DNA from: an uncultured Actinomycetota bacterium
GTDB taxonomy: Bacteria; Actinomycetota; CALGFH01
NCBI GenBank assembly: GCA_963733175.1
Contig: CAVTCL010000003.1
Span: 11,640 to 75,639 of the forward strand
Length of the DNA: 64,000 nucleotides
Reading direction: 5' to 3'
Shown here piece after piece: positions 1-22,723 of this stretch. The notes beneath the pieces were generated by a model. It searched no databases, was not told the origin of the DNA, and worked only from the letters and a program-made list of their open reading frames with translations. Position numbers and translations under genes: made by a program. Position 1 is the stretch's first letter. Each line of letters starts with the position of its first letter.

Positions 1-689
1 AAGGTGATCAGGTCGACCCCCGGGTCCTCGGTCAGGGCCTGGCCGGCCTCGCCCGGCCCGAACCCCTGGACGACGTTGAGCGTCCCCGGCGGCAGGCCGG
101 CCTGGCCGGCCAGCAGGCCGAGGCGGTGGCAGGACGCCGGCGACTGCTCGGCCGGCTTGAGCACGACGGTGTTGCCGAAGGCCAGGGCGGGGGCGACCTT
201 CCAGCTGGCCAGCATGAGGGGGAAGTTCCAGGGCGAGATGGCCGCGGCCACGCCGACCGGCTCGTGCCGGGTGTAGACGTGGTGGCCGGTCGGCGAGGGC
301 AGCGCCTCGTCGGTGGCCAGGGCGGCGTAGTCGGCGAAGAAGCGGAAGTTCAGGGCCGCCCGGTGGGCGTCGTTGTCGCGGGCCTGGCGGATCGGCTTGC
401 CCATGTCGGTCGAGTCCAGCCGGCCGAGGGCGCCGGCCTGCTCCTCGATCAGGTCGGCCAGCCGGTGCAGGGCCGCCCCGCGCTCGGCCGGGGCCATCCG
501 CGGCCAGGGCCCGGCGTCGAAGGCGCGCCGGGCGGCGGCAACGGCCGCCGCCGCGTCCTCGGCCGACCCGCGGGCCACCCGGGCCCAGGCCGCCTCGGTG
601 GCCGGGTTGACCGACTCGAAGGTGCGGCCGTCGGCCGCCGGCCGCTCCTCCCCGTCGATCAGGTGCGGGATGTCGACCAGCTCGCTCAT
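1..689 (-). CDS. NAD-dependent aldehyde dehydrogenase, 2-hydroxymuconic/2-aminomuconic semialdehyde dehydrogenase type; C-terminus lies beyond the window start
   Basis: Minus-strand translation begins MSELVDIPHLIDGEERPAADGRTFESVNPATE...GKPIRQARDND...ISPWNFPLML..FGNTVVLKPAEQSP, the classic ALDH N-terminal half; ATG at 689 overlaps the stop of the upstream HAD gene (ATGA). Confidence 0.85.
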   Translation of the reverse strand, partial: MSELVDIPHLIDGEERPAADGRTFESVNPATEAAWARVARGSAEDAAAAVAAARRAFDAGPWPRMAPAERGAALHRLADLIEEQAGALGRLDSTDMGKPIRQARDNDAHRAALNFRFFADYAALATDEALPSPTGHHVYTRHEPVGVAAAISPWNFPLMLASWKVAPALAFGNTVVLKPAEQSPASCHRLGLLAGQAGLPPGTLNVVQGFGPGEAGQALTEDPGVDLIT

Positions 690-1345
690 GGGGTCCCTCC
701 GTCGTCGGACGCCAGGCCGAGGGCGTGGCGGACCTTCCGGTAGCTGTCGTCGGGCCGGGTGACGTCGAACCAGACGGCCGCCATGCCGGCGGCGGCGGCG
801 CCGGCGGCGTTGGCCGGCTGGTCGTCGACGAACACCGCCTGGTCGGGGGCGACCCCGAGGCGGTCAAGGACCAGCCGGTAGGCGGCCGGCTCCGGCTTGC
901 GGGTCCCGTGCCGGGAGGCGTCGACCACGCAGCCGACCTCGGCCAGGACCCGGATCCTGTCGATCCATGCCTGGTCGTGGAAGTCGTAGAGGTCGTTGGT
1001 GAGCACCGCCGTCTCCAGGCCGCGCCGCCGGGCGGCGGCGACCAGGTCGCGGGCCTGGGGGCGGACCAGCTCGGCCTCGGGCCCGTCGAACAGCCGGGCC
1101 ATCATGGCCGGGACCCCGTCGGTGCCCGAGACCGCCGCCACCTCGGCGGCCCGGGCCGCCCAGTAGTCCCGCTCGCCCAGCTCCCCCGCCTGCATGGCCC
1201 GCCACAGCGGGTCGGCGGCCGGGTCGAACGGCCCCCGCCAGGCGAAGGTGCCCGGCGGCACCCGCAGCGACCGCTCCATGGCGGCCACCCGCTCGAACGG
1301 GGTCACCAGCACCGGCCCGCCGAAGTCGAGCACCACCGCCTTCAC
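686..1345 (-). CDS. HAD-superfamily hydrolase, paralog 1
   Basis: VKAVVLDFGGPV...FVDDQPANAAGAAAAGMAAVWF; DxG at the N-terminus and a C-terminal DD motif; GTG start overlaps the Rieske ferredoxin stop (GTGA). Confidence 0.7.
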   Translation of the reverse strand: MKAVVLDFGGPVLVTPFERVAAMERSLRVPPGTFAWRGPFDPAADPLWRAMQAGELGERDYWAARAAEVAAVSGTDGVPAMMARLFDGPEAELVRPQARDLVAAARRRGLETAVLTNDLYDFHDQAWIDRIRVLAEVGCVVDASRHGTRKPEPAAYRLVLDRLGVAPDQAVFVDDQPANAAGAAAAGMAAVWFDVTRPDDSYRKVRHALGLASDDGGTP

Positions 1346-7187: not shown

Positions 7188-8100
7188 ATGGGGATCCTCC
7201 GCCTGTCGCACGTGGACGTGCGCGTGCCCGACCTCGACCTCGCCAGCGCCTACTACACCGAGGTCATGGGCCTGCTCGAGGTCGAGCGGACGGCCACCGA
7301 GGTGTTCCTCAAGTGCTGGGACGAGACCGACCACCACTCGGTCAAGCTGAGCTACGCCCCCCGGGTCGGCCTGGACCTGATCAGCTTCAAGGTCGAGGCC
7401 GACGAGGACCTGGCCGACCCTGGAGTCGCGGGTCGAGCGCTACGGCTTCCCGGTGCGCCGGGTCTCCCGCGGCGAGTCGGTCGGCCAGGGCGAGTCGATC
7501 CGCTTCGAGACCCCGTCGGGCCAGATGATGGAGCTGGTCCGCGAGGTCGAGCGGGTCGGCGGGCTGCTGCCCAAGCTCAACCCGCCCCCGTTCCCGCCCC
7601 AGGACCTGCGCGGCATCGCCCCGCCCCGCATCGACCACGTCCTGGTCACCGCCGAGGAGGTCGGCGAGGCCACCCGCTTCTACATGGAGGTGCTGGGGTT
7701 CCGGCTGACCGAGCAGCTGCTGGACGGCAACGGCCACCAGATCGGCGTCTGGATGGAGCGGTCCCACTCCCCCCACGACCTGGCCGTGGTCACCGGGGCC
7801 AACGGCGGGCTGCACCACTTCGCGTTCTGGCTGGACGACTGGGACCACGTGCGCAAGGCGGCCGACATCCTGGCCTACAACGGCGTCCAGATCGACGTCG
7901 GCCCGACCCGCCACGGCATCACCCGCGGCAACACCATCTACTTCTTCGACCCCCTGGGGACCCGCAACGAGGTGTTCACCGGCGGCTACCGGCCCGACCC
8001 GGACTTCCCCACCATCACCTGGACCGAGGACAACATCGGCCGGGCGATCTTCTACTACGAGGGCGACCTGAACGAGCGGTTCATGAAGGTCCACACCTGA
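7188..8100 (+). CDS. catechol 2,3-dioxygenase (extradiol, vicinal oxygen chelate), copy 1, with an apparent +1 frameshift
   Basis: MGILRLSHVDVRVPDLDLASAYYTEVMGLLE... continues in another frame from about 7420 (..GESIRFETPSGQMMELVREVERVGGLLP...HHFAFWLDDWDHV...); an extra C in gaccctggag at 7417-7420 relative to copy 2. Confidence 0.75.
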
Positions 8101-8101: not shown

Positions 8102-9013
8102 ATGGGGATCCTGCGCCTGTCGCACGTCGAGGTCCGGGTGCCGGACCTGGAGCTGGCCACCGCCTACTACACCGAGGTGCTGGGGCTGCTGGAGACGGGC
8201 CGGGACGCCGAGCGGGTGTTCCTCAAGTGCTGGGACGAGCACGAGCACCACTCGGTGATCCTGCGCTATGCCGCCACCTACGGCCTGGAGCACATGGGCT
8301 TCAAGGTCGAGCACCCCGACGACCTGGAGCACTTCGAGCAGCGGGTCGAGAAGGACGGCGGCCAGGTGACCCGCCACGCCCGCGGCGAGCTCGCCCCCGG
8401 GCACGGCGAGGCCATCCGCTTCCAGACCCCGACCGGGCACCGCTGCGAGCTGGTCTGGGGGATGGAGAAGGTCGGCAACCTCCTCCCCCGCACCAACCCG
8501 CCGCCGCGGCCGCTGGGGCTGGTCGGGATCGCCCCGCCGCGCCTCGACCACATCTTCGTCACCGCCGAGGACGTCGACGAGGGGACCCGGTTCTTCCGCG
8601 AGGTGCTGGGGTTCCGGCTGACCGAGCAGATCCTGGCCGACGACGGCCACCAGCTCGCCACCTGGCTGGAGGTCTCCCACACCCCCCACGACATCGCCCT
8701 GGTCACCGGGCCCAACGGGGGCCTGCACCACTTCGCCTTCTGGCTCGACGACTGGAACGAGGTCCGCACCGCCGCCGACACCCTGGCCTACCACGGGGTG
8801 CCGATCGACGTCGGCCCGACCCGCCATGGGGCCACCCGCGGGTTCGCCGTCTACTTCTTCGACGCCGCCGGCAACCGCAACGAGGTGTTCACCGGCGGCT
8901 ACTGGGTCGACCCCGACCACGAGCCCGTCACCTGGACCGAGGCCGAGATGGGGCGGGCCATCTTCTACTACGAGGGCGCCGTCAACCAGCGGTTCCTGAC
9001 CGTGCACAGCTGA
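8102..9013 (+). CDS. catechol 2,3-dioxygenase, copy 2 (intact)
   Basis: 303 aa MGILRLSHVEVRVPDLELATAYYTEVLGLLE...LHHFAFWLDDWNEV...; full-length XylE/DmpB-type; tandem to copy 1. Confidence 0.9.
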   Translation: MGILRLSHVEVRVPDLELATAYYTEVLGLLETGRDAERVFLKCWDEHEHHSVILRYAATYGLEHMGFKVEHPDDLEHFEQRVEKDGGQVTRHARGELAPGHGEAIRFQTPTGHRCELVWGMEKVGNLLPRTNPPPRPLGLVGIAPPRLDHIFVTAEDVDEGTRFFREVLGFRLTEQILADDGHQLATWLEVSHTPHDIALVTGPNGGLHHFAFWLDDWNEVRTAADTLAYHGVPIDVGPTRHGATRGFAVYFFDAAGNRNEVFTGGYWVDPDHEPVTWTEAEMGRAIFYYEGAVNQRFLTVHS

Positions 9014-9340
9014 CAGGGAGGGGAGGCGAGATGGCCGAGGACCCGCCGCTGCCGCGGACCGAGCGGCCCGACGCGCCCCTGTACCTGGCCAGCTACCTGC
9101 GGCGGCGGGCCAGGGCGGCCGCTCCCGAGCCCGGCGGCGAGCCGGCACCGGCCGAGGCCGGGGCCGACGCGGCCACGCCGCTGTACCTGCGCCGGTTCCG
9201 GGAGCGGCGGGCCGACCCGGACGCCCCCGACGCCCCCCCGCCGGTCTGGAACGGCGAGCCGCTGGAGGTGACCAGGGCCTGGGCCGAGATCACCCGGACC
9301 AAGGAGATCGTCCCCGAGACCGGGCGCCGGCGCCTTCCGG

Positions 9341-10099
9341 GTGGCCGCCCAGGTCCACATCATCCGCCACGGCGAGACCCAGGGGTACTCGACCGAGAGC
9401 GGCCTCACCCCCCTCGGCGGCTGGCAGGCCCACCGGCGCGGCTTCGACCTGTCCAAGGGCATCCGCGACGGCGAGCAGGTCCGGATCGTCTGCGCCGACA
9501 CCAACCGGGCCCGCCAGACGGCCGAGCACCTCCACCGGGGCCTGCTCGACGGCCTCGACCTGTGGCGCCGCGACGCCAAGGTGGCCGAGCCGCGGCCCAT
9601 GGCCGAGTTCCGCAACTTCCAGGTCGCCACCCCCGACGGCCTGCGCGACGTGACCAGCGCCTTCCGCATGTACCACGCGCTGGCCGAGCGGTACGAGCGG
9701 GTCGCCCTCGGGGACCGGCCGATGTGGCTGGTCGAGGTGGACCGGTTCTGGAACGTCCAGCAGGGCGGGGCCGACCCCATCCACCACTGGATGACCATCC
9801 CCATGCTCCACTTCGAGCCGCCGGCGAGCTGCGTGCGCCGCTTCTGGGCCGGCTTCCAGCGCCTGGTCGACGAGGCCCCCGGGGCCCGGATCCTCTGCGC
9901 CACCCACTCCGGCCCCATCCGCGCGTTCGCCGCCTGGGCGGTCGGCTACGATCCCGGCGAGCCCTACAACACCGAGGAAGTGCTGGTGAAGCTGAAGGAG
10001 GGCGGCGGCGAGGCCCTGGTCGCCTACCGCAACCGGGTCCAGGAGGTCCAGGTCCCGCCCACCGGCGAGCGGCCCGACTGGTGGGAGGGCATCCGGTGA
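9341..10099 (+). CDS. histidine phosphatase family protein (phosphoglycerate mutase-like)
   Basis: VAAQVHIIRHGETQGYSTESGLTPLGGWQAH...CATHSGPIRAF; RHG catalytic motif; GTG start; stop overlaps the next gene (GTGA). Confidence 0.75.
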   Translation: MAAQVHIIRHGETQGYSTESGLTPLGGWQAHRRGFDLSKGIRDGEQVRIVCADTNRARQTAEHLHRGLLDGLDLWRRDAKVAEPRPMAEFRNFQVATPDGLRDVTSAFRMYHALAERYERVALGDRPMWLVEVDRFWNVQQGGADPIHHWMTIPMLHFEPPASCVRRFWAGFQRLVDEAPGARILCATHSGPIRAFAAWAVGYDPGEPYNTEEVLVKLKEGGGEALVAYRNRVQEVQVPPTGERPDWWEGIR

Positions 10100-11185
10100 G
10101 CTTCGTGCGCTGGCTGGACGGCTACGACCCGGCCGAGCGGGCCCGCCTGGGGGGCAAGAACGCCAGCCTGGGGGAGCTGCTGGCGGCCGGGCTGCCGGTG
10201 CCGCCCGGGTTCGCGGTCACCGTCGACGCCTACCACACCGTCCGCGGCCACCCCGAGGTCCGCCGGGCCGTCACCGGGCTGCTGGGCGAGGTCGACCTGG
10301 CCGACCCGGCCGCCCTGGAGGAGCTGAGCGCCGCCATCCGCCGCCGCATCGAGGAGGTCCCCCTGCACGACGGCGTGGCCGCCGAGGTCCGCGCCGCCTA
10401 CCAGGAGCTGTGCGAGCGCTGCGCCGGCGAGGCGGTGCCGGTGGCGGTGCGCTCCTCGGCCACCTCCGAGGACCTGCCCGACGCCAGCTTCGCCGGCGAG
10501 CACGACACCTACCTGTGGGTCCGCGGCCCCGACGACGTGCTCGCCCACCTCACCCGCTGCTGGTCGAGCCTGTTCACCGCCAGGGCGATCGCCTACCGGC
10601 GCGAGCGGGGCTACGACCACGACGTGGTCGCCATGTCGGTCGGGGTCCAGAAGATGGTCCGCCCCACCGCCTCGGGGGTGGCCTTCACCCTCAACCCCCG
10701 CGACGGCGACCGCTCCCAGGTCGCGGTCGAGTCCGCCTGGGGCTTCGGCGAGGGCATCGTGTCCGGCGAGGTCACCCCCGACAGCTTCCTGGTCGACAAG
10801 GTCCTTGGCGAGATCGTGCAGCGCACCATCTCCGACAAGGCGGTCGAGTACCGGCTGGGCGACGGCGACCGGGTCGAGCGGGCGCCGGTCGACCAGGACC
10901 AGGCGGACCGCCCCCAGCCTCACCGACGACCAGGTCAAGGCGGTGGCCCGCCTGGCCCGCCAGGCCGAGCGGCACTACCGCCGCCCCCAGGACGTGGAGT
11001 GGGCGCTGGACGGCGACCTGCCCGCCGGGCAGGCCGTGACCCTGCTCCAGGCCCGGCCGGAGACGGTCTGGAGCCGCAAGGCGGCCACGCCGGTCGCCAC
11101 CGCCGCCGACCCGATGGCCAGCATCGTGGCCACCCTCGTGTCGCCGCTGCACGCACGTGAAGCTTCGGACCAGCCCGGGCCCTGA
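10096..11185 (+). CDS. PEP-utilising enzyme N-terminal ATP/nucleotide-binding domain protein (PPDK_N; phenylphosphate synthase PpsB-like), copy 1, apparent frameshift
   Basis: VSFVRWLDGYDPAERARLGGKNASLGELL...VRSSATSEDLPDASFAGEHDTYLWV...MSVGVQKMVRPTASGVAFTLNP; the C-terminal ..LTDDQVKAVARLARQAERHYRRPQDVEWALDG...LLQARPETVWS is in another frame from about 10911 (C5 run). Confidence 0.75.
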
Positions 11186-11213
11186 CCCGGGCATCGACGG
11201 AAAGGACACGGCC

Positions 11214-13032
11214 ATGGCGGACCGGTTCCCGAGCCCCTTCGAGATCGAGACCCCGGCGGGGGCCGAGGGGTGGCAGGAGCTGTACACCTACTCGCTGCCG
11301 TTCTCGACCGACCGGCGCGAGTACGAGGACTCGATGTTCTGGTTCCAGGACGGGGTCCACTGGCCGGCGGTCATGAGCCCCTGGGACGCCACCTTCTACG
11401 AGTTCGCCCTGGCCTCGCTGTCGCAGTACAACACCCGCCACTACCTGATCCCGCCGGCCCTCGGGGTCGACTTCCGGGTGCTCAACGGCTACGCCTACCT
11501 GTCCCCGGTCGGGGTCGCCGACCCGGCCGAGATCGAGGCCAGGGTCCCCCACTTCCTGGAGCGGGCCGGCTTCTACTTCCAGAACTGGGCGACGCTGTAC
11601 GAGCAGTGGATGGGCAAGATCCGCGGGCTGATCGGCGAGATGGAGGCGCTCAGCTTCGAGCCGCTGCCCGACAAGGAGGACCTGGCCGTGGTCACCGAGG
11701 GCCGCGGCATGGGCTCGGGGTTCGAGCTCCAGCGCAGCTACCACCGGCTGGTCGACCTGGCCCTGCAGCTGTGGCAGTACCACTTCGAGTTCCTCAACCT
11801 CGGCTACGCCGCCTACCTGGACTTCTTCGGCTTCTGCAAGCAGGCCTTCCCCAGCATCCCCGACCTGGCCATCGCCAAGATGGTCGCCGGGGTCGAGGTC
11901 GACCTGTTCCAGCCCGACGAGGAGCTGAAGAAGCTGGCCCGCCTGGCCGTCGACTCCGGCGTCGGCGACGCCTTCGACCGGCCCTCGGCCGCCGAGGTGA
12001 TCGAGGCCCTGCGGGCCAGCGACGCCGGGCAGGCGTGGCTGTCGCAGTGGGAGGCGTCGGCCCAGCCGTGGTTCAACTTCTCGGCCGGCAGCGGCTTCTA
12101 CCACACCGACGAGGTGTGGCTGGAGCACCTGGAGATCCCGTTCGGGTTCGTGCGCGACTACATCGCCAAGCTCCGCGACGGGGTCGACATCAGCCGTCCC
12201 ATCGACGCCATCCGGGCCGAGCGCGACCGGATCGTCGGCGAGTACGGCGAGCTGCTGGCCACCGACGAGGACCGGGCCGCCTTCGAGCAGAAGCTCGGCC
12301 TGGCCCGGGTGGTGTTCCCCTATGTCGAGAACCACAACTTCTACGTCGAGCACTGGAGCCACTCGGTGCTGTGGCGCAAGATGCGCCAGCTCGGCGGCGT
12401 CCTGGCCAAGGAGGGCTTCTTCGGCGGCGAGGACGACATCTTCCTGCTCAAGCGGGACGAGGTCCCCGAGGCGCTGTGGGACTACTACAGCGCCTGGGCG
12501 GTCGGGACCCAGCCGCGCGGCCCGGCCTACTGGGGCCGGGAGCTGGAGCGGCGCCGGGGCATCCTGACCGCGCTGCGGTCCTGGTCGCCCCCGCCCGCCC
12601 TCGGCCGGCCGCCCGAGGTCGTGACCGAGCCGTTCACCATCATGCTCTGGGGCATCACCGGCGAGAGCGTCAAGCAGTGGCTGGGGGCCGGCGACGGCGC
12701 CGGCGACGGCACCCTCAAGGGCTTCGCCGCCTCCCCGGGGGTGGCCGAGGGGCCGGCCCGGGTGATCTTCTCGGCCGACCAGATCGGCGAGATCCAGGCG
12801 GGCGAGATCCTGGTCGCCCCCCTGACCGCGCCCGAGCTGGGCGCCCATCTTCGGCAAGATCGGGGCCACCGTGACCGACGTCGGCGGGATGATGGCCCAT
12901 GCCGCCATCGTCTGCCGCGAGTACGGGCTGCCGGCGGTGACCGGCACCGCCTTCGGGACCAAGACGATCAAGACCGGCCAGCGCATCCGCGTGGACGGCA
13001 ACCAGGGCACCGTCACCATCCTGGAACCGTAA
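11214..13032 (+). CDS. PEP-utilising enzyme with C-terminal mobile (swivel His) domain (PpsA-like), copy 1, apparent frameshift
   Basis: MADRFPSPFEIETPAGAEGWQELYTYSLPF...; C-terminal GFAASPGVAEGPARVIF...EILVAPLTAPE then a frame change at about 12845 to ..IFGKIGATVTDVGGMMAHAAIVCREYGLPAVTGT...VDGNQGTVTILEP; good Shine-Dalgarno (gaaagga) 8 nt upstream. Confidence 0.8.
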
Positions 13033-13044: not shown

Positions 13045-14295
13045 ATGCTGACCGCCGAGCAGAACGCCGAGCTGACCCGGGTCGGGCCGGGGACGCCCAT
13101 GGGCGAGCTCCTGCGCCGCTACTGGTACCCGGTGGCCTTCACCCGCCAGCTCGAGGAGTTCCCGGTGAAGCGGGTGCGGCTGCTCGGCGAGGACTGGGCC
13201 CTGTACAAGACCCCGGACGGGTCCTACGGGGTGGTCGAGGAGCACTGCCCCCACCGGCGGGCGTCGCTGGCCTACGGGGTGGTCGAGCCCGAGGGCCTGC
13301 GCTGCGGCTACCACGGCTGGCTGTTCGGCCGCGACGGGACCTGCCTGGACCAGCCGGCCGAGCTCGACAAGACCTCGTTCAAGGACCGGGTCCGGGCCCG
13401 GGCGGGCCGGGCCCAGGAGCTGGGCGGCATGGTCTGGGTGTACGTGGGCCCGGAGCCGGCGCCGCTGCTGCCCCGCTACGACGTGTACGTGATGGACGGG
13501 GTGCGCGACTTCGGCCACGCCCTGCTGCCCTGCAACTGGCTGCAGATCATGGAGAACGCCGTCGACCCCCACCATGTCGAGTGGCTGCACGGCCGCTACT
13601 TCGAGTTCCTCGGCAACCGGATGGGGTTCGAGGCCCCCAAGTCGTTCCAGCGCCGCCACGTCAAGGTCGCCTTCGACGAGTTCGACCACGGCATCATCAA
13701 GCGCCGGCTGCTGGAGGGCCACAGCGAGGACGACGACGACTGGGCCATCGGCCACCCGATGGTGTTCCCCTACTGCATGCGGGTCGGGGGCGCCGGCATC
13801 GAGCAGATGCAGATCCGGGTGCCGGTCGACGACACCACCACCTGGTTCGTGCTCTACACGGTCCACGCCCCCGAGGGGGCACCTGCCCCCGACCAGGCCG
13901 CCATCCCCGACTACGAGCTGCCCTGGCGCGACGAGCAGGGCAACCACATCGTCGACTACGTCGAGGGCCAGGACATCATGGCCTGGGTCACCCAGGGCCC
14001 GATCACCGACCGGACGGTCGAGCACCTCGGCAAGTCGGACGTGGGCATCGCCATGCTCCGCAAGCAGTTCAAGCAGCAGCTGGCCGCGGTGGCGGCCGGC
14101 CGCGACCCGATCGCCGTGGTCCGCGACCCGGCGGCCAACGCCCGCATCGACCTGCCGTGCGAGAAGAACAAGTTCGGCGCCGGAGCCGACTTCGCCCTCC
14201 AGTGGATGAACCTCGGCTTCACCCGGTACTCGCCGCAGCTCCAGGACCTGCTGCGCCTCCACACCGAGGCGGCCGAGGTCCGGGCCGATGCCTGA
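13045..14295 (+). CDS. Rieske non-heme iron aromatic-ring-hydroxylating oxygenase, alpha subunit
   Basis: CPHRRASLAYG...CGYHGW Rieske motif plus a mononuclear-iron domain (..NAVDPHHVEWLHG..); 416 aa; aaggagg Shine-Dalgarno; no beta subunit or reductase nearby. Confidence 0.85.
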   Translation: MLTAEQNAELTRVGPGTPMGELLRRYWYPVAFTRQLEEFPVKRVRLLGEDWALYKTPDGSYGVVEEHCPHRRASLAYGVVEPEGLRCGYHGWLFGRDGTCLDQPAELDKTSFKDRVRARAGRAQELGGMVWVYVGPEPAPLLPRYDVYVMDGVRDFGHALLPCNWLQIMENAVDPHHVEWLHGRYFEFLGNRMGFEAPKSFQRRHVKVAFDEFDHGIIKRRLLEGHSEDDDDWAIGHPMVFPYCMRVGGAGIEQMQIRVPVDDTTTWFVLYTVHAPEGAPAPDQAAIPDYELPWRDEQGNHIVDYVEGQDIMAWVTQGPITDRTVEHLGKSDVGIAMLRKQFKQQLAAVAAGRDPIAVVRDPAANARIDLPCEKNKFGAGADFALQWMNLGFTRYSPQLQDLLRLHTEAAEVRADA

Positions 14296-14551
14296 GGCGG
14301 ACCTGCTGCCGGAGGACCCGCACCCCCTGCCGCCGCCCACCGCCTGGTTCGCCCGCGACGCCGAGCGCCACCTGCTGGACGCCCCCCGCCACTGCCCCCG
14401 CTGCGGCGCCGCCATCGGCGGTCCCGACGGCCTGGTGGTCGAGTACTGGGCGGCCGACGACCGCGTCTTCTACTGCTGGTGCCGCTCCTGCGACTGGACC
14501 GGCACCGTGGTCCAGGTCGACCGCCACATCGGCCACGAGGCGGCCGACTAG
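14288..14551 (+). CDS. small zinc-ribbon-like hypothetical protein
   Basis: 87 aa with CPRCGAA...CWCRSC (two CxxC pairs); ATG overlaps the oxygenase stop (ATGCCTGA). Confidence 0.4.
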   Translation: MPEADLLPEDPHPLPPPTAWFARDAERHLLDAPRHCPRCGAAIGGPDGLVVEYWAADDRVFYCWCRSCDWTGTVVQVDRHIGHEAAD

Positions 14552-17012: not shown

Positions 17013-18421
17013 ATGGCGGTCATCGATCCAGGTGCCCTGCGCGCGCTCCGGCGTCGGTTCGGAGGGCGGGTCCTGGGTCCCGACGACCCCGGGTATCGCG
17101 ACGCGCGCCGCGTCTGGAACGCGATGGTGGACCGGCGTCCGGCGGTCATCGCCAGGTGCGGCAGCCGGGAGGACGTGGTCGCGGCCATCTCCTTCGCCCG
17201 CCAGACCGGGCTCGAGGTGGCGGTGCGCAGCGGCGGTCACAGCGTCTCGGGCCACTCCTCCACCGACGGCGGCATCGTCATCGACTTGACCGAGATGCGC
17301 ACCGTCACGGTGGACCCCGAGGCGCGCGTCGCCAGGGTGGACGGGGGTGCGCTCCTGTGCCACCTGGACGCCGGGACCCAGCGGTTCGGGCTGGCCACCA
17401 CCGGGGGATGGTGTCCCACACCGGCGTCGGCGGGCTGACCCTCGGCGGCGGGTACGGCTACCTGTCCCGGCGGTTCGGGCTGGCCTGCGACAACCTGCTC
17501 GCCGCCGAGGTGGTGCTGGCCGACGGGACGGTCACCGTGGCCAGCGACTCCAGCGAGCCCGACCTGTTCTGGGGGCTCCGGGGCGGCGGGGGCAACTTCG
17601 GGGTCGTCACCCGCTTCGAGTTCCGCCTGCACCCCGTCGGGCCGGCCGTCTTCTCCGCCGACCTCACCTTCGCGGCCGACGACGGCCCGGCGGTCCTGCG
17701 CGCCTTCCGCGACCTCGCCCTCGGGCGGCAGGACATCGTCAGCGGCGCCTACGCCGGCGCGGTGTCCCGGTCCTGGGCCGGGTTCGACGACCTGGTCGGG
17801 CGGCCGATCGTGAGCGTGGACTTCACGGTGACGGGGCCGGACCCCGGCGAGGGCGCGGCCGTCGTGGCGTCGCTGCGGAGCGTCGCCACCCCGCTCGCCG
17901 AGACCGTCGAGTCCCTGTCCTATGTCGAGCTCCAGTCCGCCGCCGGGGCGTCCTGGCGGCCGGGCACGTCGCGCTGCTACTGGAAGTCCTCGGTCTTCTC
18001 CGAGCTCCCCGACGGGCTGCTGGACGCCTTCGTCGAGCGTGGGGTGGCGTCGGCCGCCGTCTCCGAGGGCTGCGGCCTGGAGCTGGTCGCCGCCTTCGGT
18101 GGCGCCGTCTCGGAGGTGGGAGAGGACGACACCGCGTTCAGCCACCGCCACGCCCAGGTCGACTTCCTCGCCCTCGGGCGGTGGGACGACCCGGCCGACG
18201 ACGAGCTCCACATCGAGCTGTGCCGCCGGAACTGGGCGGCGCTGGCCCGGTTCTCCGACGCCGGCGTGTACGTCAACAACCTGGGGCAGGAGGACCGGGT
18301 GCGCGAGGCCTACGGCGAGGCGAAGTACCGGCGGCTGGTCGCCCTCAAGGACCGGTTCGACCCGGACAACCTGTTCCACCTCAACGCGAACATCCGGCCG
18401 TCCGCGGGCGCTCGCGGCTAG
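17013..18421 (+). CDS. FAD-binding oxidoreductase (VAO/PCMH / BBE-like), copy 1, apparent frameshift
   Basis: ..VIARCGSREDVVAAISFARQTGLEVAVRSGGHSVSGHS.. then a frame change at the G5 run (about 17405) to ..VSHTGVGGLTLGGGYGYLSRRFGLACDNLLAAEVVLADG...GGGGNFGVVTRFEF...; C-terminal BBE-like domain. Confidence 0.75.
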
Positions 18422-18924
18422 CGTCGGCGGTCGCGCCGGACCACCAGCTCCAGCTCGACCGCGAACCCGAGCGGGAGGGCGGCCACCCCGACCGCCGAGC
18501 GGGCATGGCGGCCGCGGTCGCCGAACAGCTCCACCAGCAGGGCCGAGGCGCCGTCGACCACGGCCGGGACGGCGGTGAAGCCGGGGGTGCAGGCGACGAA
18601 GCCGACCAGCTTGACGACCTGGCCCACCTGGTCCAGGTCGCCGAGGGCGTCGCGGGTCTGGGCGAGCAGGTTCAGCGCGCAGTCGCGGGCGGCCTTCTGG
18701 CCCTGCTCGACGGTGAGGTCGGCCCCGAGGCGGCCGACCCAGCCGTCGGCGCCCTGGCCGGACAGGAACAGCAGGTCGCCGGCTGACACCCAGCCCTCGT
18801 ACAGCCCGGCCCTTGGCCGCAGCGCCGGCAGCTCCAGGCCCAGCTCGGCCAGCCGCCGTTCCGGGCCGGGTCCCTCCGGTGGCCGGCCGCGGGGTGGGAC
18901 GGCGAACACCCGGCCCGGGCTCAT
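18418..18924 (-). CDS. RidA/YjgF/TdcF-family protein (enamine/imine deaminase); candidate 2-aminomuconate deaminase
   Basis: 168 aa ..LVGFVACTPGFTAVPAVVDGASALLVELFGDRGRHARSAVGVAALPLG..; the RidA fold. Confidence 0.7.
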   Translation of the reverse strand: MSPGRVFAVPPRGRPPEGPGPERRLAELGLELPALRPRAGLYEGWVSAGDLLFLSGQGADGWVGRLGADLTVEQGQKAARDCALNLLAQTRDALGDLDQVGQVVKLVGFVACTPGFTAVPAVVDGASALLVELFGDRGRHARSAVGVAALPLGFAVELELVVRRDRRR

Positions 18925-19526
18925 CGGACGCTGAACACCCGGCCGGGCCCGGGCGGCGGCGGGTCGGGGTCGAGCCCGAGACGGGCGAGCAGGGCGGCGA
19001 TCGAGCCGGCGGGGTCGCGGACCTCGAACAGCAGCGTCTGCATCCCGACGGCGGCGGCACCTTCCAGGTTGACCGCCAGGTCGTCCACGAACAGGCAGCG
19101 CCCGGGGGCCTCGCCGATCTCGGCCGCGGCCAGCCGGAACGCCTCCGGGTCGGGCTTGAGCACCCCCAGGCGGGCCGCCTCCACCACCTGGTCGAACCCG
19201 CCCAGCTCCGGGAACCGCCCCGGCCAGTCAGGCCCGAACCAGTGCGCCATGTCGTTGGTGAACGCCACCAGCCGGACCCGCCCGGCCAGCGCATCCACCG
19301 CCGCCCGGACCTCGCCCCGCACCCGCGAGCAGGCCCGCCACAGCGCCCCCACGTCCAGGTCGGGCCGCCGCTCGCCCAGCCGGGCCCAGTAGTCCCGCTC
19401 GGCCAGCTCCCCCCGCTCCACGGCCGCGTACTCGGCCTCCCCCCGGAACGGCCCCCCGGGAAACCCCGCCACCGCCACCGACTCGAACAGGGTCGGGATC
19501 ACCACCCCACCCATGTCCAGCAGCAC
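18921..19526 (-). CDS. HAD-superfamily hydrolase, paralog 2
   Basis: VLLDMGGVVIPTLFE...CLFVDDLAVNLEGAAAVGMQTLLF; similar to the HAD genes at 686 and 30605; the start (GTG vs ATG 19514) is uncertain. Confidence 0.65.
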   Translation of the reverse strand: MLLDMGGVVIPTLFESVAVAGFPGGPFRGEAEYAAVERGELAERDYWARLGERRPDLDVGALWRACSRVRGEVRAAVDALAGRVRLVAFTNDMAHWFGPDWPGRFPELGGFDQVVEAARLGVLKPDPEAFRLAAAEIGEAPGRCLFVDDLAVNLEGAAAVGMQTLLFEVRDPAGSIAALLARLGLDPDPPPPGPGRVFSVR

Positions 19527-19924
19527 CGCCGCCGGCGCCCGCCCCGCCCTCCCGGCCCGGCCCCCGGCCCTGGCCCCGGCGGCCCGCCACAGCGCCCGCC
19601 GCCGCCGCACCGCCCAGTCGTCCAGGTCCACCGGAGCCCCAGCCCGCGCGGCCCCGGGGTCGACCGCGCAGAGGTCACCCGAGGGTGCACCTGGGGGCCA
19701 TGCACCCAGAAGGTGCACCCACCGCTCCTCGGATTGCCGCCGCTACCCCCCCAAGGGGGAGCGTAGACGACCCCGGATCTGGGTCCGGGTGCTCGTCCAC
19801 AGCCCCCTGGGGTCCTGGCGACCCCGGACCCGGGTCCCGTTGCCTGTCCACGGGCCCATCGGGTCCCCGGGTTCTCCTGGGCCCTCCGGGTCCCTCGGCA
19901 GCGACCATCGATCCGGTCCGCGGC

Positions 19925-21754
19925 CTACCCGAGCACCGTGACGACGCCTTCGCTGCCGTCGACCCGGATGCGCTGGCCGGTCTTGATGGTGGCGACCGCC
20001 TTGCCGGTGCCGATCACCGCCGGGAGGCCGTACTCGCGGCAGATGATGGCGGTGTGGCTCATGATCCCGCCGACGTCGGAGACGGTGGCGGCGATCCGGG
20101 AGAACACCGGCGACCACGACGGCGAGGTGGCCGGGCAGACCAGGATCTCGCCCTCCTGGACCTGGTCCAGCTCGGTGACGTGGCGCACGACCCGGGCCGG
20201 GCCCTCGACCACCCCGGGCGACCCGGCCACCCCGCGCAGGGTCGCCTGGCCGTCGCCGTCGCCCTCGCCTTCCCGGAGCCATTCGCCGACCGTGTCGGTG
20301 GTGATGCCCCAGAGCATGACCGTGAACGGCTCGCTCACCTCGGCCGGCGGCGGCCCGAGGGCGGGGACGGCGTCGGCCGCCGACAGCGCCGCGTGGATGC
20401 GGCGCCGCTCGGTCACGATCGGCCGCCAGTAGTCGGCCCCCCGGGCCCTGCTCCCCACCGACCAGGCGGCCACGGCGTCGTACAGCGCCTCCATGACCTC
20501 GTAGCGGCGCAGGAAGAACATGTCCTCGGGGTCGTCGAAGATGCCCATGGCCTGGAGGGCCCGCGACAGCTCCTTGGACTTGCCCCAGAAGGTGGCCCAC
20601 AGCCAGTGCTCGATGTAGAGCACGTGCTCCTCGATGTAGACGAACACCTTGCGGGCCAGGGCGACCATCTCGTCGAAGGCGGCCTGGTCGCCTTCGGCCA
20701 GCAGCGCCCGGTACTCGGCGGTGATCCGGTCGCGCTCGGCCAGGACCTGCTCGGTCGGGCGGTCGAGGGCCTCGCCGGCCCGCAGCCGGCGCACGTACTC
20801 CTTGACCGAGGCCAGCGGGATGCCGGGGTCGTCCAGCCAGGTGTCGTAGTAGTGGTAGCCGCCCGGGTGCCCGGGGTCGGTGTTGAACAGGAACCACGGG
20901 TCCGAGGTCCGCTCCCAGTCGGCCACCCACTCGCGGCCGCCCTCGCTCCCCTTGAGCTCCTCGAACAGCGAGCCCGGGTCGCCGGCGCCAAGGACGGCCT
21001 CGCCGACCCCGAGGCGCTCGGCCTCCTTGGCCAGGCGCTTGAGCTCGTCGTCGGGCCGGTACAGGTCGACGTGGAGGCCGCCCACCATGCGCGAGATCGA
21101 CTGGTCGGTGATGTCACCGAACGCCTGCTTGGCGAACATGAAGAAGGTCAGGTAGGCGGCGTAGCCGACGTTGAGCAGCTCGAAGTGGTACTGGTAGGTC
21201 TTGTACATGGTCAGGACGAGGTTGGAGAAGTCCTCGATCATCCGGTACCCGGACGAGTAGCCGACGTGGTCGAAGACCACCGACTCGTCCTCCAGCTCGG
21301 GCAGGGGCTCGAACCGGATCGCCTTGATCTCCTCCAGGTGGGCGGTGACCTTGTCCTTCCACTCGGCGTAGATCTGGTCCCAGTGCTCGTAGTAGTGGCC
21401 GCCGCGGCGGCCGAACAGCTCGGCCCGCGCGGGCACGCTCTCGGGCGGCGCCGGGACCGGGGTCACGTACAGGTAGCCGTTGAGGATCCGCTGGTCCACC
21501 CCGAAGGCGGGCGGCATGGCGAAGATGCGGGTGTTGAACGCCCCCAGGGCCTGCCACCAGCACTCGCACTGGATCTCGTCGTAGGGGTGGAGCACGCCCG
21601 GGTGGTGCAGCCGGTCCTGGAACCAGAACCGCTGCTCGTCCAGGTCGCGGCGGTCGTCGCCGAACAGGTGGTACCAGTTGTACATCTGCTCCCAGCCCTC
21701 GGCCCCCTCGGGCGTCGGCACCTCGAACGGGCTGGGGAAGCGGTCCTGGCTCAA
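19925..21754 (-). CDS. PEP-utilising enzyme with mobile (swivel His) domain (PpsA-like), copy 2 (intact)
   Basis: 609 aa (M/L)SQDRFPSPFEVPTPEGAEGWEQMYNWYHLF...GVAGSPGVVEGPARVV...EILVCPATSPSWSPVFSRIAATVSDVGGIMSHTAIICREYGLPAVIGTG; TTG start overlaps the BMC vertex gene stop (TTGA). Confidence 0.85.
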   Translation of the reverse strand: MSQDRFPSPFEVPTPEGAEGWEQMYNWYHLFGDDRRDLDEQRFWFQDRLHHPGVLHPYDEIQCECWWQALGAFNTRIFAMPPAFGVDQRILNGYLYVTPVPAPPESVPARAELFGRRGGHYYEHWDQIYAEWKDKVTAHLEEIKAIRFEPLPELEDESVVFDHVGYSSGYRMIEDFSNLVLTMYKTYQYHFELLNVGYAAYLTFFMFAKQAFGDITDQSISRMVGGLHVDLYRPDDELKRLAKEAERLGVGEAVLGAGDPGSLFEELKGSEGGREWVADWERTSDPWFLFNTDPGHPGGYHYYDTWLDDPGIPLASVKEYVRRLRAGEALDRPTEQVLAERDRITAEYRALLAEGDQAAFDEMVALARKVFVYIEEHVLYIEHWLWATFWGKSKELSRALQAMGIFDDPEDMFFLRRYEVMEALYDAVAAWSVGSRARGADYWRPIVTERRRIHAALSAADAVPALGPPPAEVSEPFTVMLWGITTDTVGEWLREGEGDGDGQATLRGVAGSPGVVEGPARVVRHVTELDQVQEGEILVCPATSPSWSPVFSRIAATVSDVGGIMSHTAIICREYGLPAVIGTGKAVATIKTGQRIRVDGSEGVVTVLG

Positions 21755-22059
21755 GGGCTGGTCCTTTCCGCTCGGCGTTCCGCTCGGCGGGGCTTGGGGG
21801 AGGTGGGCGGGGTCGGGAGCCGGTCGGCGCCCGCGACCAGGGCGACCACGGCCGCGTCGACGGCCGCCCCGCCGGTGGCGGTCTGGGCGGCGTCGTCGGT
21901 GACGACCAGCACGGTGTTGCCGGCGGCCACGTCGACCAGGTCGACGGCCACGTGCGCGGCCGAGGTGGACAGGTCCCGGACCAGCACCATGCGGCGGCCG
22001 TCCAGGTCGGGCACCTGGCGCTCGGACCAGACCCGGCCGAGGACCTCGGCCAGCAGCAT
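21751..22059 (-). CDS. bacterial microcompartment vertex protein (BMC-P, EutN/CcmL/PduN family)
   Basis: 102 aa MLLAEVLGRVWSERQVPDLDGRRMVLVRDL...GNTVLVVTDDAAQTATGGAAVDAAVVALV matches the PF03319 pattern (V.G.vw..r...l.g..l.lv...G..vl...g.a....vDaavv); ATG overlaps the BMC-H stop (ATGA). Confidence 0.8.
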   Translation of the reverse strand: MLLAEVLGRVWSERQVPDLDGRRMVLVRDLSTSAAHVAVDLVDVAAGNTVLVVTDDAAQTATGGAAVDAAVVALVAGADRLPTPPTSPKPRRAERRAERTSP

Positions 22060-22700: not shown

Positions 22701-22723
22701 GCCGCTCCTCCCTCTCGTGCGTG

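What the first reader, a model, noticed from the sequence alone, without database searches (positions are those of the whole stretch)
10096..13032. Split PEP-utilising enzyme pairs (phenylphosphate-synthase-like PpsB + PpsA), duplicated, each next to a phosphatase
The window has two PPDK_N-only proteins (10096..11185, 31259..32299) and two swivel-His-domain proteins with the conserved N-terminus DRFPSPFE (11214..13032, 19925..21754). This split organisation resembles phenylphosphate synthase (PpsA/PpsB) of anaerobic phenol degraders, or split rifampin-phosphotransferase-like enzymes, but here it is embedded in an aerobic ring-cleavage and BMC context. Every copy has a phosphatase neighbour: a histidine phosphatase (9341..10099, GTGA-coupled to PpsB-1), HAD-2 (18921) after PpsA-2, and HAD-3 (30605) after PpsB-2. 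This hints at an ATP- or PEP-dependent phosphorylation and dephosphorylation cycle acting on a phenolic substrate, a function not described for ring-cleavage or BMC loci.
Basis: partly seen in the sequence, partly recalled or inferred. Interest (0 to 1): 0.82.

Follow-up and report, generated by a model that had tools for sequence, protein, structure and literature searches.

The report
Split phenol kinases beside phosphatases
The window encodes two members of a known family of two-part ATP-driven kinases that phosphorylate phenolic compounds, each with its own phosphatase; what is new is that one of them is a conserved but so far unremarked part of the operon for a protein-shelled microcompartment that breaks down aromatic rings.

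Summary
There are two PPDK_N-only ATP-grasp proteins. There are also two ~605-aa proteins with an RPH-like substrate domain plus a swivel-His domain. Phosphatases sit beside them. In this window both genes of pair 1 carry a +1 frameshift, as do the adjacent His phosphatase, a dioxygenase and at least six other genes. A 94%-identical relative has these genes intact, so I read the breaks as assembly errors.

The proteins belong to the described two-component small-molecule dikinase family (PpsAB, CreHI, HpeHI). Kinase/phosphatase cycles on phenols are therefore already known in aerobic actinobacteria.

The two sets are distinct clades (47% identity), not recent duplicates:
- Set 1 sits in a conserved non-BMC cluster: two extradiol dioxygenases, His phosphatase, PpsB, PpsA, VanA/LigXa-type Rieske oxygenase.
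- PpsA-2 and HAD-2 sit in the ARO microcompartment operon. That placement (shell genes, PpsB, PpsA, HAD) recurs in Euzebya, Pseudonocardia, Amycolatopsis and Thermoleophilia. It was mutually exclusive with HyuAB in the nine lineages sampled, and the ARO texts held do not mention it.

Verdict: new variant of a known kind, moderately interesting.

The parts
7188..8100 (+). Type I (VOC/glyoxalase-fold) extradiol dioxygenase 1, first gene of the module-1 operon. It is broken by a +1 insertion at ~7416.
   Evidence: Pfam Glyoxalase plus Diox-like_N. There is a frame switch and an uncompensated gap against L004. The L004 orthologue is intact and so is the L037 one.
8102..9013 (+). Type I extradiol dioxygenase 2.
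   Evidence: Pfam Glyoxalase x2 plus Diox-like_N. It is 94-97% identical to the genes in L004 and L037.
9031..10099 (+). Histidine-phosphatase-superfamily protein (about 355 aa in relatives). The RHGE motif is present. There is a +1 insertion at ~9325. The stop overlaps the PpsB-1 start (GTGA).
   Evidence: Pfam His_Phos_1, E 2e-13, on 9341..10099. Orthologues are 354-357 aa. The gap against L004 at 9325 is.
10096..11185 (+). PpsB-1: the ATP-grasp (PPDK_N) small subunit of a two-component dikinase. It has a +1 insertion between 10901 and 10915.
   Evidence: The corrected 362-aa protein hits PPDK_N at E 1e-108. PDB hits are PEP-synthase ATP-grasp domains and HpeI 9GOJ at 232 bits. The L004 orthologue is intact.
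11214..13032 (+). PpsA-1: the large subunit (RPH-like substrate domain plus swivel His). It has a +1 insertion at ~12830, upstream of the catalytic His.
   Evidence: The corrected 605-aa protein hits NCBIfam PRK08296.1-2 at 859 bits, above the cutoff. P0241 is an intact 605-aa protein with 96% identity. The motif is TDVGGMMAH.
13045..14295 (+). Rieske non-haem-iron oxygenase of the VanA/LigXa type, always downstream of PpsA-1-type genes.
   Evidence: Pfam Rieske, LigXa_C and VanA_C. It is conserved in L004, L037, L038 and L039.
14290..14551 (+). Small conserved ORF after the Rieske oxygenase (81-95 aa in relatives). The start is approximate.
   Evidence: There is a coding signal and a weak DUF7837 hit. 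An 81-95 aa gene sits at the same position in L037-L039.
689..1340 (-). HAD-1: a HAD-IA (DxGG) hydrolase in the divergent lower meta-cleavage operon of module 1.
   Evidence: Pfam Hydrolase and HAD_2. The same position is occupied in L037.
18421..18903 (-). YjgF/RidA-family protein (a 2-aminomuconate-deaminase-like position), last gene of the ARO operon.
   Evidence: Pfam YjgF_endoribonc and Ribonuc_L-PSP. The same position is occupied in Euzebya, L007 and L008.
18921..19718 (-). HAD-2: a HAD-IA (DxGG) phosphatase with a conserved Arg-rich N-terminal peptide (DDWAVRRRRALWRAAG). It always follows the BMC-associated PpsA.
   Evidence: Pfam Hydrolase. Orthologues with the peptide are found in 9 loci. 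A helix at residues 32-51 is predicted at low confidence.
19925..21754 (-). PpsA-2: intact large subunit of the BMC-associated clade. Its TTG start overlaps the stop of the BMC-P gene.
   Evidence: NCBIfam PRK08296.1-5 at 774 bits. AlphaFold pLDDT is 91. RPH is the only full-length structural match. Orthologues of 66-76% identity sit next to shell genes.
21751..22059 (-). BMC-P (EutN/CcmL) shell pentamer protein.
   Evidence: Pfam EutN_CcmL, E 9e-14.
22059..22397 (-). BMC-H shell protein 2.
   Evidence: Pfam BMC, E 2e-19.
22407..23549 (-). LigB-type dioxygenase alpha subunit and BMC-H shell protein 1. They read as one ORF only because of a +1 insertion at ~22892.
   Evidence: Pfam LigB (residues 23-224) and BMC (292-362). 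There is a frame deviation at 22741-22860. They are separate genes in L004.
23579..24639 (-). LigB-type (AmnB-like) ARO dioxygenase beta subunit. A +1 insertion at ~23585-23589 puts the stop out of frame.
   Evidence: Pfam LigB, E 2e-27. Homologues are named 2-aminophenol 1,6-dioxygenase beta subunit.
24661..25479 (+). IclR-type regulator, divergent from the ARO operon.
   Evidence: Pfam HTH_IclR and IclR_C. It is conserved in ARO loci.
31259..32299 (-). PpsB-2: intact orphan ATP-grasp small subunit and the candidate partner of PpsA-2. It follows ABC-transporter genes.
   Evidence: Pfam PPDK_N, E 6e-91. Its best PDB hit is HpeI 9GOJ, 45% identity over 263 aa. In the NJ tree it branches next to the group containing the BMC-associated PpsB clade, but not inside that clade.
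30605..31258 (-). HAD-3: a HAD-IA (DxGG) hydrolase immediately after PpsB-2. It has no N-terminal peptide.
   Evidence: Pfam Hydrolase and HAD_2.

Best explanation
The window holds two members of the two-component small-molecule (phenolic) dikinase family, whose characterised members are PpsAB, CreHI and HpeHI.

Mechanism, by homology:
1. The small subunit (PpsB, an ATP-grasp) presents ATP.
2. The swivel His of the large subunit (PpsA) is pyrophosphorylated and keeps the beta-phosphate.
3. The swivel domain carries it to the RPH-like substrate domain.
4. An aromatic hydroxyl is phosphorylated, giving aryl phosphate, AMP and Pi.
5. A cognate phosphatase later removes the phosphate, so the free catechol or 2-aminophenol-type compound reaches the ring-cleaving dioxygenase.

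Set 1 is His phosphatase, PpsB-1, PpsA-1 and a VanA/LigXa-type Rieske oxygenase, after two extradiol dioxygenases and opposite a meta-cleavage lower pathway. It is a conserved, BMC-independent catabolic cluster. By analogy with the Cre and Hpe pathways, the phosphate probably serves as a handle or protecting group while the Rieske oxygenase modifies the ring substituent.

Set 2 is PpsA-2 and HAD-2 in the ARO microcompartment operon, with the ATP-grasp partner supplied in trans, most likely by PpsB-2. It is the local version of a conserved shell-PpsB-PpsA-HAD module of 'type II' ARO loci. It probably forms the missing upstream step that feeds the encapsulated dioxygenase.

Shown here: domain architecture, motifs, fold, clade structure, synteny.
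Inferred: the substrate class, the order of the reactions, the PpsB-2/PpsA-2 partnership, and that the frameshifts are assembly errors.
For: Architecture:
- PPDK_N-only small subunits, and large subunits with only a C-terminal PEP-utilizers domain.
- The large subunits score above the cutoff for NCBIfam PRK08296.

Motif:
- T/SxxGGxxxH with Met at His-2 in both copies, as defined for HpeH, CreH and PpsA in PMC12167813.
- The His, and the GG and Met just before it, are invariant in 45 homologues.

Fold:
- The AlphaFold model of PpsA-2 has pLDDT 91.
- Those figures nearly repeat the ones published for HpeH.

Small subunit:
- The best PDB hit of PpsB-2 is HpeI (9GOJ), 45% identity over 263 residues.

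Synteny of set 1:
- The gene order is the same in L004, L037 (90% identity), L039 (Acidimicrobiia) and partly in L038 (Pseudonocardia bannensis).

Synteny of set 2:
- LigB-LigB-BMC-BMC-EutN-PPDK_N-PpsA-HAD is found in Euzebya, Pseudonocardia asaccharolytica, Amycolatopsis rhabdoformis (there also with His_Phos_1) and two Thermoleophilia MAGs.
- Twelve further contigs carry both a PpsA-2-type protein and an ARO LigB-beta, judged by matching contig lengths.

Precedent:
- CreHI, HpeHI/HpeD and the 3-hydroxypyridine cluster.

Frameshifts as assembly errors:
- All six single-base differences I could check against relatives of 92-95% identity are insertions in the window.
- They also hit unrelated genes.
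Against: - No biochemical data exist for either clade, and the substrate is unknown.
- I could not place the large subunits in a tree with CreH, HpeH and Thauera PpsA, because those sequences were not obtainable here. 'Distinct clades' is shown only relative to each other.
- None of the partner enzymes of the characterised pathways is present: no UbiD-type carboxylase, no biotin carboxylase, no P450. The downstream chemistry must therefore differ.
- In this window PpsA-2 has no adjacent ATP-grasp gene.
- Four of the frameshifts fall within the 6-kb set-1 operon, while none falls in the neighbouring 7-kb lower-pathway operon. Real decay of set 1 in this strain is therefore not excluded.
- The HADs have DxGG rather than DxDxT in motif I. 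From memory, E. coli YihX is an active phosphatase with the same variant. I did not test this here.
Confidence: 0.75

Rival explanations
1. Set 1 is dead in this organism. On this view the frameshifts in dioxygenase 1, the His phosphatase, PpsB-1 and PpsA-1 are real mutations and the operon is a recently decayed pseudogene cluster. Only PpsA-2 and PpsB-2 would function.
For: There are four +1 frameshifts within 6 kb (7416, 9325, ~10901-10915, 12830), against none in the adjacent 7-kb lower-pathway operon. The PpsA-1 shift removes the catalytic His from the frame.
Against: GC3 stays at 0.9-1.0 on both sides of every shift. Frame breaks also occur in at least seven other genes across the window, including LigB alpha and beta, two transporter binding proteins and a GH36 enzyme. 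All six that I could compare with relatives are insertions in the window, which suggests a technical bias. Orthologues at 94-96% identity are intact.
Confidence: 0.15
2. The dikinases act on something other than a phenolic OH. One candidate is the amino group of an aromatic amine, giving a phosphoamidate as proposed for aniline in Desulfatiglans. Others are a hydroxylated N-heterocycle or an enol of a ring-fission product.
For: The ARO operon is of the 2-aminophenol type, with AmnAB-like LigB subunits and a RidA-type deaminase. A homologous pair is required for 3-hydroxypyridine conversion in Ensifer. The same trio sits next to a tryptophan 2,3-dioxygenase in another BMC locus. The aniline case rests on my memory of the literature and was not checked here.
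Against: All biochemically characterised two-component members phosphorylate a phenolic hydroxyl. The neighbours are catechol and aminophenol ring-cleavage enzymes, whose substrates carry such hydroxyls.
Confidence: 0.15
3. They are ordinary PEP synthase or pyruvate phosphate dikinase fragments that recycle pyruvate, an end product of the meta pathway. Alternatively they are a split rifamycin-type antibiotic phosphotransferase.
For: NCBIfam and JGI names say 'pyruvate, water dikinase'. The fold of the large subunit matches RPH.
Against: No subunit has a PEP-utilizers_C (PF02896) pyruvate/PEP-binding domain, whereas a genuine three-domain PEP synthase is seen elsewhere (L039). All scores lie far below the PEP synthase and RPH equivalog cutoffs. 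Identity to RPH is only 18-21%. The operon context is catabolic and conserved.
Confidence: 0.03

Closest known systems
HpeHI / HpeD of Rhodococcus rhodochrous GD02 (hydroxyphenylethanone pathway; PMC9618137, PMC12167813; HpeI structure 9GOJ)
   Same: Both have a two-polypeptide dikinase, made of an ATP-grasp subunit and a subunit with an RPH-like substrate domain plus swivel His. Both have the T/SxxGGxxxH motif with Met at His-2. Both come from aerobic actinobacteria and have a dedicated phosphatase in the cluster. PpsB-2 is 45% identical to HpeI.
   Different: There is no biotin-dependent carboxylase, CoA ligase or hydrolase here. The phosphatases are HAD-IA (DxGG) and His_Phos_1, not the NagD-like type. 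The partner enzymes are extradiol dioxygenases, a Rieske oxygenase and BMC shell proteins. The large subunits could not be compared directly.
CreHI with CreJEF/CreD of Corynebacterium glutamicum (4-cresol pathway), as described in PMC9618137 and the 3-hydroxypyridine preprint
   Same: The phenolic OH is phosphorylated first, an oxygenase then works on the phosphorylated compound, and the phosphate is removed later. This is the best functional analogy for set 1, with its Rieske oxygenase and phosphatases.
   Different: The oxygenase there is a P450, and the pathway ends in 4-hydroxybenzoate and ortho cleavage. No P450 is present here, and the pathway leads to meta cleavage.
Phenylphosphate synthase PpsABC of Thauera aromatica (anaerobic phenol degradation)
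   Same: The two-subunit architecture and the catalytic scheme are the same.
   Different: There is no PpsC and no UbiD-type phenylphosphate carboxylase in the window. The context is oxygen-dependent ring cleavage.
ARO bacterial microcompartment locus (Sutter 2021, PMC8217296; Doron 2023, PMC10470539)
   Same: The window at 18.4-25.5 kb has the defining set: two LigB-type dioxygenase subunits, two BMC-H, one BMC-P and a divergent IclR. The dioxygenase beta subunit is 70-77% identical to ARO homologues in Micromonospora, Pseudonocardia and Euzebya.
   Different: The published text names HyuAB as the only candidate upstream enzyme and does not mention a dikinase or a phosphatase. Here, and in the Pseudonocardiales, Euzebya and Thermoleophilia loci, HyuAB is absent. 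A PpsB-PpsA-HAD module follows the shell genes instead. No AldDh lies next to the shell genes in this window.
Rifampin phosphotransferase RPH (5HV1, 5FBT)
   Same: It is the only solved structure that matches the whole large subunit. It uses the same three-domain logic.
   Different: It is a single chain, shares 18-21% identity, and is an antibiotic-resistance enzyme.

Membership tests
Two-component small-molecule (phenolic) dikinases (PpsAB / CreHI / HpeHI) | Two separate polypeptides: an ATP-grasp subunit (~340-370 aa, PPDK_N only) and a ~600-aa subunit ending in the swivel phospho-His domain. | tested here: met
   Pfam. Lengths after frameshift correction are 362/605 aa and 346/609 aa.
Two-component small-molecule (phenolic) dikinases (PpsAB / CreHI / HpeHI) | Swivel motif T/SxxGGxxxH with the catalytic His, and Met rather than the regulatory Thr at His-2 (PMC12167813). 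| tested here: met
   TDVGGMMAH in PpsA-1 and SDVGGIMSH in PpsA-2. The His, the GG and the Met are invariant in 45 homologues.
Two-component small-molecule (phenolic) dikinases (PpsAB / CreHI / HpeHI) | The substrate domain of the large subunit is homologous to the rifampin-binding domain of RPH, and there is no PEP/pyruvate TIM-barrel domain. | tested here: met
Two-component small-molecule (phenolic) dikinases (PpsAB / CreHI / HpeHI) | About 40-45% pairwise identity to characterised members. | tested here: inconclusive
   Small subunit: PpsB-2 is 45% identical to HpeI 9GOJ over 263 residues, and PpsB-1 scores 232 bits to it. Large subunit: the reference sequences of HpeH, CreH and PpsA were not obtainable.
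Two-component small-molecule (phenolic) dikinases (PpsAB / CreHI / HpeHI) | ATP-dependent formation of aryl phosphate plus AMP plus Pi. | not testable with these tools
   This needs an enzyme assay.
Phenylphosphate synthase / carboxylase system of anaerobic phenol degraders | Linked UbiD-type phenylphosphate carboxylase (PpcABCD) and PpsC. | tested here: not met
   Pfam annotation of nearly every coding region I delimited found no such genes.
Hpe pathway | Biotin-dependent carboxylase HpeCBA, with HpeE and HpeF, next to the kinase. | tested here: not met
   There is no biotin carboxylase, carboxyltransferase or AMP-ligase in the window.
Cre pathway | P450 CreJ with its redox partners next to the kinase. 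| tested here: not met
   No P450 was found. A Rieske oxygenase follows PpsA-1 instead.
ARO bacterial microcompartment locus | [quoted passage not shown] | tested here: met
   The alpha subunit and BMC-H1 are separate genes once the +1 insertion at 22892 is allowed for.
ARO bacterial microcompartment locus | ARO-type aldehyde dehydrogenase co-located with the shell genes. | tested here: not met
   No Aldedh lies in 18.4-25.5 kb. The only one, at 3..752, is cut by the window edge and lies 17 kb away. It is 42-45% identical to the AldDh in the ARO loci of L016 and L033-L036.
PEP synthase / PPDK | C-terminal PEP/pyruvate-binding domain (PF02896) and scores above the equivalog cutoffs. | tested here: not met
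   348 bits against a cutoff of 598 for the small subunit alone, and no PF02896 hit.
Rifampin phosphotransferase | A single ~860-aa chain that scores above the NF041857 cutoff. | tested here: not met
   The genes are split. Scores are 284 and 113 bits against a cutoff of 999.

The most novel reading that the evidence does not exclude
The PpsB-PpsA-HAD trio may be a working part of the microcompartment itself. On this reading the reactive, membrane-permeant aromatic (a 2-aminophenol or catechol-type compound) is phosphorylated in the cytosol to a stable anionic aryl phosphate. That ester is the species that passes the shell pores. The HAD phosphatase, carried inside by its conserved Arg-rich N-terminal helix, then unmasks it next to the encapsulated ring-cleaving dioxygenase. 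This would be an ATP-driven, group-translocation-like import into a BMC. HyuAB would be the alternative ATP-dependent feeder in type I ARO loci. The same trio would serve a second, uncatalogued BMC type built around a tryptophan 2,3-dioxygenase.
Probability: 0.2. Interest if true: 0.85.

Novelty: new variant of a known kind. Interest (0 to 1): 0.6.

Why it matters
Doron et al. (2023) state that the physiological substrate and the upper pathway of the ARO microcompartment are unknown. They state that 2-aminophenol itself is toxic and does not serve as the sole carbon and nitrogen source. They name HyuB as the only candidate upstream enzyme in the locus.

A dikinase-phosphatase module sits directly after the shell genes in every non-HyuAB ARO locus sampled. 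This gives a concrete, testable proposal for how the substrate is prepared or delivered. It also identifies two new clades of the recently defined two-component dikinase family and links them to meta-cleavage pathways. This is relevant to lignin- and aminoaromatic-degrading biocatalysts.

If the phosphatase really is encapsulated, this would be the first case I am aware of where a phosphate tag is used to feed a BMC.

Tried and rejected
- An exact-sequence look-up of a window protein (the Rieske oxygenase) found nothing on record, so the source assembly could not be identified.
- I could not obtain the CreH, HpeH or Thauera PpsA sequences. The planned phylogeny against characterised large subunits was replaced by the motif test, the fold test and the HpeI comparison.
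- The apparent LigB-BMC fusion protein was rejected as an artefact of a +1 insertion.
- The idea that the two sets are recent duplicates was rejected (47% identity, different clades).
- I searched for the HAD-2 Arg-rich peptide on other proteins of the BMC loci, as a shared encapsulation tag. It occurs only on the HAD.
- The AlphaFold run on HAD-2 had only three sequences in its alignment. The helix it predicts for the N-terminal peptide has pLDDT below 45 and is weak evidence.
- A hydrophobic-moment calculation on that peptide was unremarkable, at 0.4-0.55.
- The rest of the window (38-64 kb) is unrelated: DNA polymerase A family, adenylate cyclase, uricase, GH2/GH36 sugar genes and a PAS-SpoIIE protein.
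- I searched the ARO papers, their held supplements and the wider library for any mention of a dikinase, kinase or phosphatase in the ARO locus and found none. The figures are not held, so genes drawn but not discussed cannot be excluded.

Full report
**What is in the sequence.** The window is about 75% G+C, so raw ORF lists are uninformative. I delimited coding regions from third-position GC and annotated nearly all of them with Pfam and NCBIfam.

- 10096..11185 and 31259..32299 are PPDK_N-only ATP-grasp proteins.
- 11214..13032 and 19925..21754 are ~605-aa proteins. Their only Pfam hit is the C-terminal PEP-utilizers swivel domain. Both score above the cutoff for the NCBIfam 'hypothetical protein' family PRK08296.

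The N-terminal DRFPSPFE and the catalytic-His motifs are present. A His_Phos_1 protein overlaps PpsB-1 by GTGA. HAD hydrolases follow PpsA-2 and PpsB-2, and a fourth HAD lies in the lower-pathway operon.

**Frameshifts.** The two genes inside the finding's coordinates are not open frames. The third-position GC signal jumps frame at ~10.85 kb and ~12.8 kb. Removing one base from each restores proteins that align end to end with the intact paralogues.

A MAG contig that is 94.5% identical over the whole operon (L004) lacks exactly these bases and has intact genes. An intact 605-aa protein with 96% identity is also on record (P0241).

The same comparison shows further uncompensated +1 insertions in the window:
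- at 7416, in dioxygenase 1;
- at 9325, in the His phosphatase, which is 354-357 aa in relatives and so starts near 9031;
- at 22892, in LigB alpha;
- at ~23585-23589, just before the LigB beta stop.

Split Pfam hits reveal more frame breaks:
- a DUF222-HNH gene;
- an FAD/BBE oxidase;
- an alpha/beta hydrolase;
- a first solute-binding protein;
- probably a second solute-binding protein and a GH36 enzyme.

That makes roughly a dozen breaks in 64 kb. All six that I could check are insertions in the window, and coding bias is undisturbed on both sides. I therefore read them as assembly errors. Genuine decay of the set-1 operon cannot be excluded, because four of the breaks fall in it.

**What the proteins are.** The literature search turned up the relevant family.
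- Dexter et al. 2022 (PMC9618137) showed that Rhodococcus HpeHI phosphorylates acetovanillone and 4-hydroxyacetophenone. Only the phosphorylated compounds are then carboxylated, and HpeD removes the phosphate.
- They place HpeHI with CreHI of Corynebacterium glutamicum (4-cresol) and with PpsAB of Thauera (phenol).
- Dexter et al. [quoted passage not shown] HpeI is the ATP-grasp of rifampin phosphotransferase (RPH). HpeH is the RIF-binding plus swivel domains. The motif is T/SxxGGxxxH, with Met where PEP synthase has its regulatory Thr.

The window proteins meet each testable criterion:
- Both large subunits have the motif.
- The best PDB hit of PpsB-2 is HpeI itself (9GOJ), at 45% identity over 263 residues.
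- There is no PEP/pyruvate-binding domain.

None of the partner enzymes of the three characterised pathways occurs in the window (UbiD-type carboxylase, biotin carboxylase, P450). These are therefore new pathway contexts, not copies of Pps, Hpe or Cre.

**Two different modules, not a duplication.** PpsA-1 and PpsA-2 are 47% identical, and so are PpsB-1 and PpsB-2. Neighbour-joining trees of both subunits put set 1 and the BMC-associated proteins in separate, congruent clades.

*Set 1* belongs to a cluster conserved at 75-90% identity in Actinomycetes and Acidimicrobiia MAGs, and in Pseudonocardia bannensis.
- The gene order is extradiol dioxygenase x2, His phosphatase, PPDK_N, PpsA, VanA/LigXa-type Rieske oxygenase, then a small ORF.
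- Opposite lie an IclR gene and a meta-cleavage lower pathway that includes a HAD and a Rieske ferredoxin.
- No shell genes accompany it.
- More distant relatives in Chloroflexota also keep a His phosphatase beside the pair.

*PpsA-2* belongs to a clade that is unusually well conserved, at 66-76% identity across three classes. In every locus examined it lies next to BMC shell genes.

**The microcompartment link.** The window from 18.4 to 25.5 kb is an ARO BMC locus as defined by Sutter et al. 2021 and Doron et al. 2023. It has an IclR gene, then LigB beta, LigB alpha, BMC-H, BMC-H and BMC-P. These are followed by PpsA-2, HAD-2 and a RidA-type protein.

The operon reads LigB-LigB-BMC-BMC-EutN-PPDK_N-PpsA-HAD, followed by RidA and/or AldDh, in these genomes:
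- Euzebya tangerina;
- Pseudonocardia asaccharolytica;
- Amycolatopsis rhabdoformis;
- a Thermoleophilaceae MAG;
- a Solirubrobacteraceae MAG.

Amycolatopsis additionally has a His_Phos_1 gene and the complete lower pathway in the same operon. Twelve more contigs appear to carry both a PpsA-2-type protein and an ARO LigB beta.

The window's own lineage (L004, L005, L009) has lost the ATP-grasp gene from this position. The PpsA-2 start overlaps the BMC-P stop. The orphan PpsB-2 lies 9.5 kb away behind an ABC transporter. In the tree it branches next to the group containing the BMC-associated PpsB clade, though not inside that clade, and it is the likeliest partner. This is an inference. [quoted passage not shown]

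ARO loci of Micromonospora maris, Streptosporangium and Actinocorallia carry HyuA/HyuB and no dikinase or HAD. No HyuAB homologue lies within 10 kb of any dikinase-type ARO locus, or anywhere in the window. In the nine lineages sampled the two ATP-dependent modules are mutually exclusive.

Doron et al. wrote that they could not identify upper-pathway enzymes in the locus apart from HyuB. They also wrote that the true substrate is an unknown precursor of 2-aminophenol. Their text, their held supplements and the Sutter catalogue supplements contain no mention of PF01326, PF00391, a dikinase, a kinase or a phosphatase for ARO. No later paper on ARO BMCs is in the library.

**How it most likely works.**

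Shown here: the architecture, the motifs, the fold and the synteny.

By homology (named family, PMC12167813): PpsB binds ATP. The PpsA swivel His takes the beta-phosphate and transfers it to an aromatic hydroxyl bound in the RPH-like domain.

Inferred:
- In set 1 the phosphate ester is the substrate of the Rieske oxygenase. This parallels CreJ and HpeCBA, which accept only phosphorylated compounds. The His phosphatase and/or HAD-1 then release a catechol for the two extradiol dioxygenases.
- In the ARO module the dikinase and HAD-2 prepare or deliver a 2-aminophenol-type compound to the encapsulated LigB dioxygenase.

One extra observation fits delivery into the shell. All nine BMC-adjacent HAD-2 orthologues carry a conserved Arg-rich N-terminal peptide, whose consensus is W-x2-RRRR-x2-(W/R)-R. 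The window's two non-BMC HAD paralogues lack it. It is predicted helical, but at low confidence. I treat this as a lead, not as evidence of encapsulation.

**Verdict.** The finding is a real feature. Its biochemical reading is essentially right but already has precedent, so the genes are new members of a known family. The value lies in the two new conserved contexts. The more important is the dikinase-phosphatase module inside ARO (and one other) microcompartment operons, which makes the open question of the ARO substrate experimentally approachable.

Noticed in passing
window 7416, 9325, 10901-10915, 12830, 22892, 23585-23589; also ~15.5k, ~17.4k, ~27.2k, ~35.8k, ~50.4k, ~53.4k: There are about a dozen single-base frame breaks in 64 kb. 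The six that can be compared with relatives of 92-95% identity (L004, L005) are all insertions in the window. This looks like a systematic assembly or consensus error. Any gene call from this sequence needs frameshift-tolerant translation.
   Followed up: partly
window 22407-23549 (-): One ORF seems to encode a LigB dioxygenase subunit fused to a BMC shell domain. It is an artefact of the +1 insertion at ~22892. In L004 the two are separate genes in different frames.
   Followed up: yes
window 14551-18454: A 3.9-kb block separates the set-1 operon from the ARO operon here. It holds a frameshifted DUF222-HNH endonuclease, a SAM methyltransferase and a frameshifted FAD/BBE oxidase. In L004 only 1.3 kb lies in its place, so it is probably an insertion.
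   Followed up: partly
L001/L006 8386-17523; L032 (Actinoplanes sp.) 8266-17686: This is a second kind of BMC locus with the same PPDK_N-PpsA-HAD trio (PpsA 75-76% identical to PpsA-2). Here the trio sits between BMC-H genes and a tryptophan 2,3-dioxygenase, BMC-P, BMC-H, a PALP enzyme, DUF1611 and an MR_MLE enzyme. PrnB, a luciferase-like oxygenase and, in L032, TrpBA lie upstream. PF03301 is not in the held Sutter 2021 tables, so this may be an uncatalogued BMC type.
   Followed up: partly
window 19560-19630 (-), N-terminus of HAD-2; L001, L002, L004, L007, L008, L016, L032, L033: A conserved Arg-rich peptide (DDWAVRRRRALWRAAG here) precedes the HAD core only in BMC-adjacent HADs. It is absent from HAD-1 and HAD-3. 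It is a candidate targeting or interaction peptide, and no other protein in these loci carries it.
   Followed up: partly
L034 (Micromonospora maris), L035 (Streptosporangium sp.), L036 (Actinocorallia sp.) versus L002, L007, L008, L016, L033 and the window: ARO loci carry either HyuA/HyuB or the dikinase plus HAD, and never both, within 10 kb in the nine lineages sampled. Both are ATP-dependent enzyme families known from the anaerobic activation of aromatics and ketones.
   Followed up: partly
window 29374-37892 (-): PpsB-2 and HAD-3 sit at the end of an operon that begins with an unknown protein and an ABC importer (SBP, ATPase with TOBE domain, two permeases). The operon continues with a BD-FAE alpha/beta hydrolase and a PNPOx-like flavoprotein. 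A PNPOx-like gene also lies next to a second dikinase pair in Pseudonocardia bannensis (L038).
   Followed up: no
window 3-752 (-) and 18.4-25.5 kb: No aldehyde dehydrogenase is encoded next to the shell genes, although Doron et al. report an ARO AldDh in all ARO loci. The only Aldedh is cut by the window start. It is 42-45% identical to the AldDh in the ARO loci of L016 and L033-L036, and 65% identical to one in the Thermoleophilaceae locus L007. The Euzebya operon also lacks an adjacent AldDh.
   Followed up: partly
window 6329-7171 (-): A ~250-aa protein with no Pfam hit lies next to the IclR gene. It is conserved at the same position in L037, L038 and L039 (229-248 aa) and appears to be an uncharacterised member of the set-1 cluster.
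   Followed up: no
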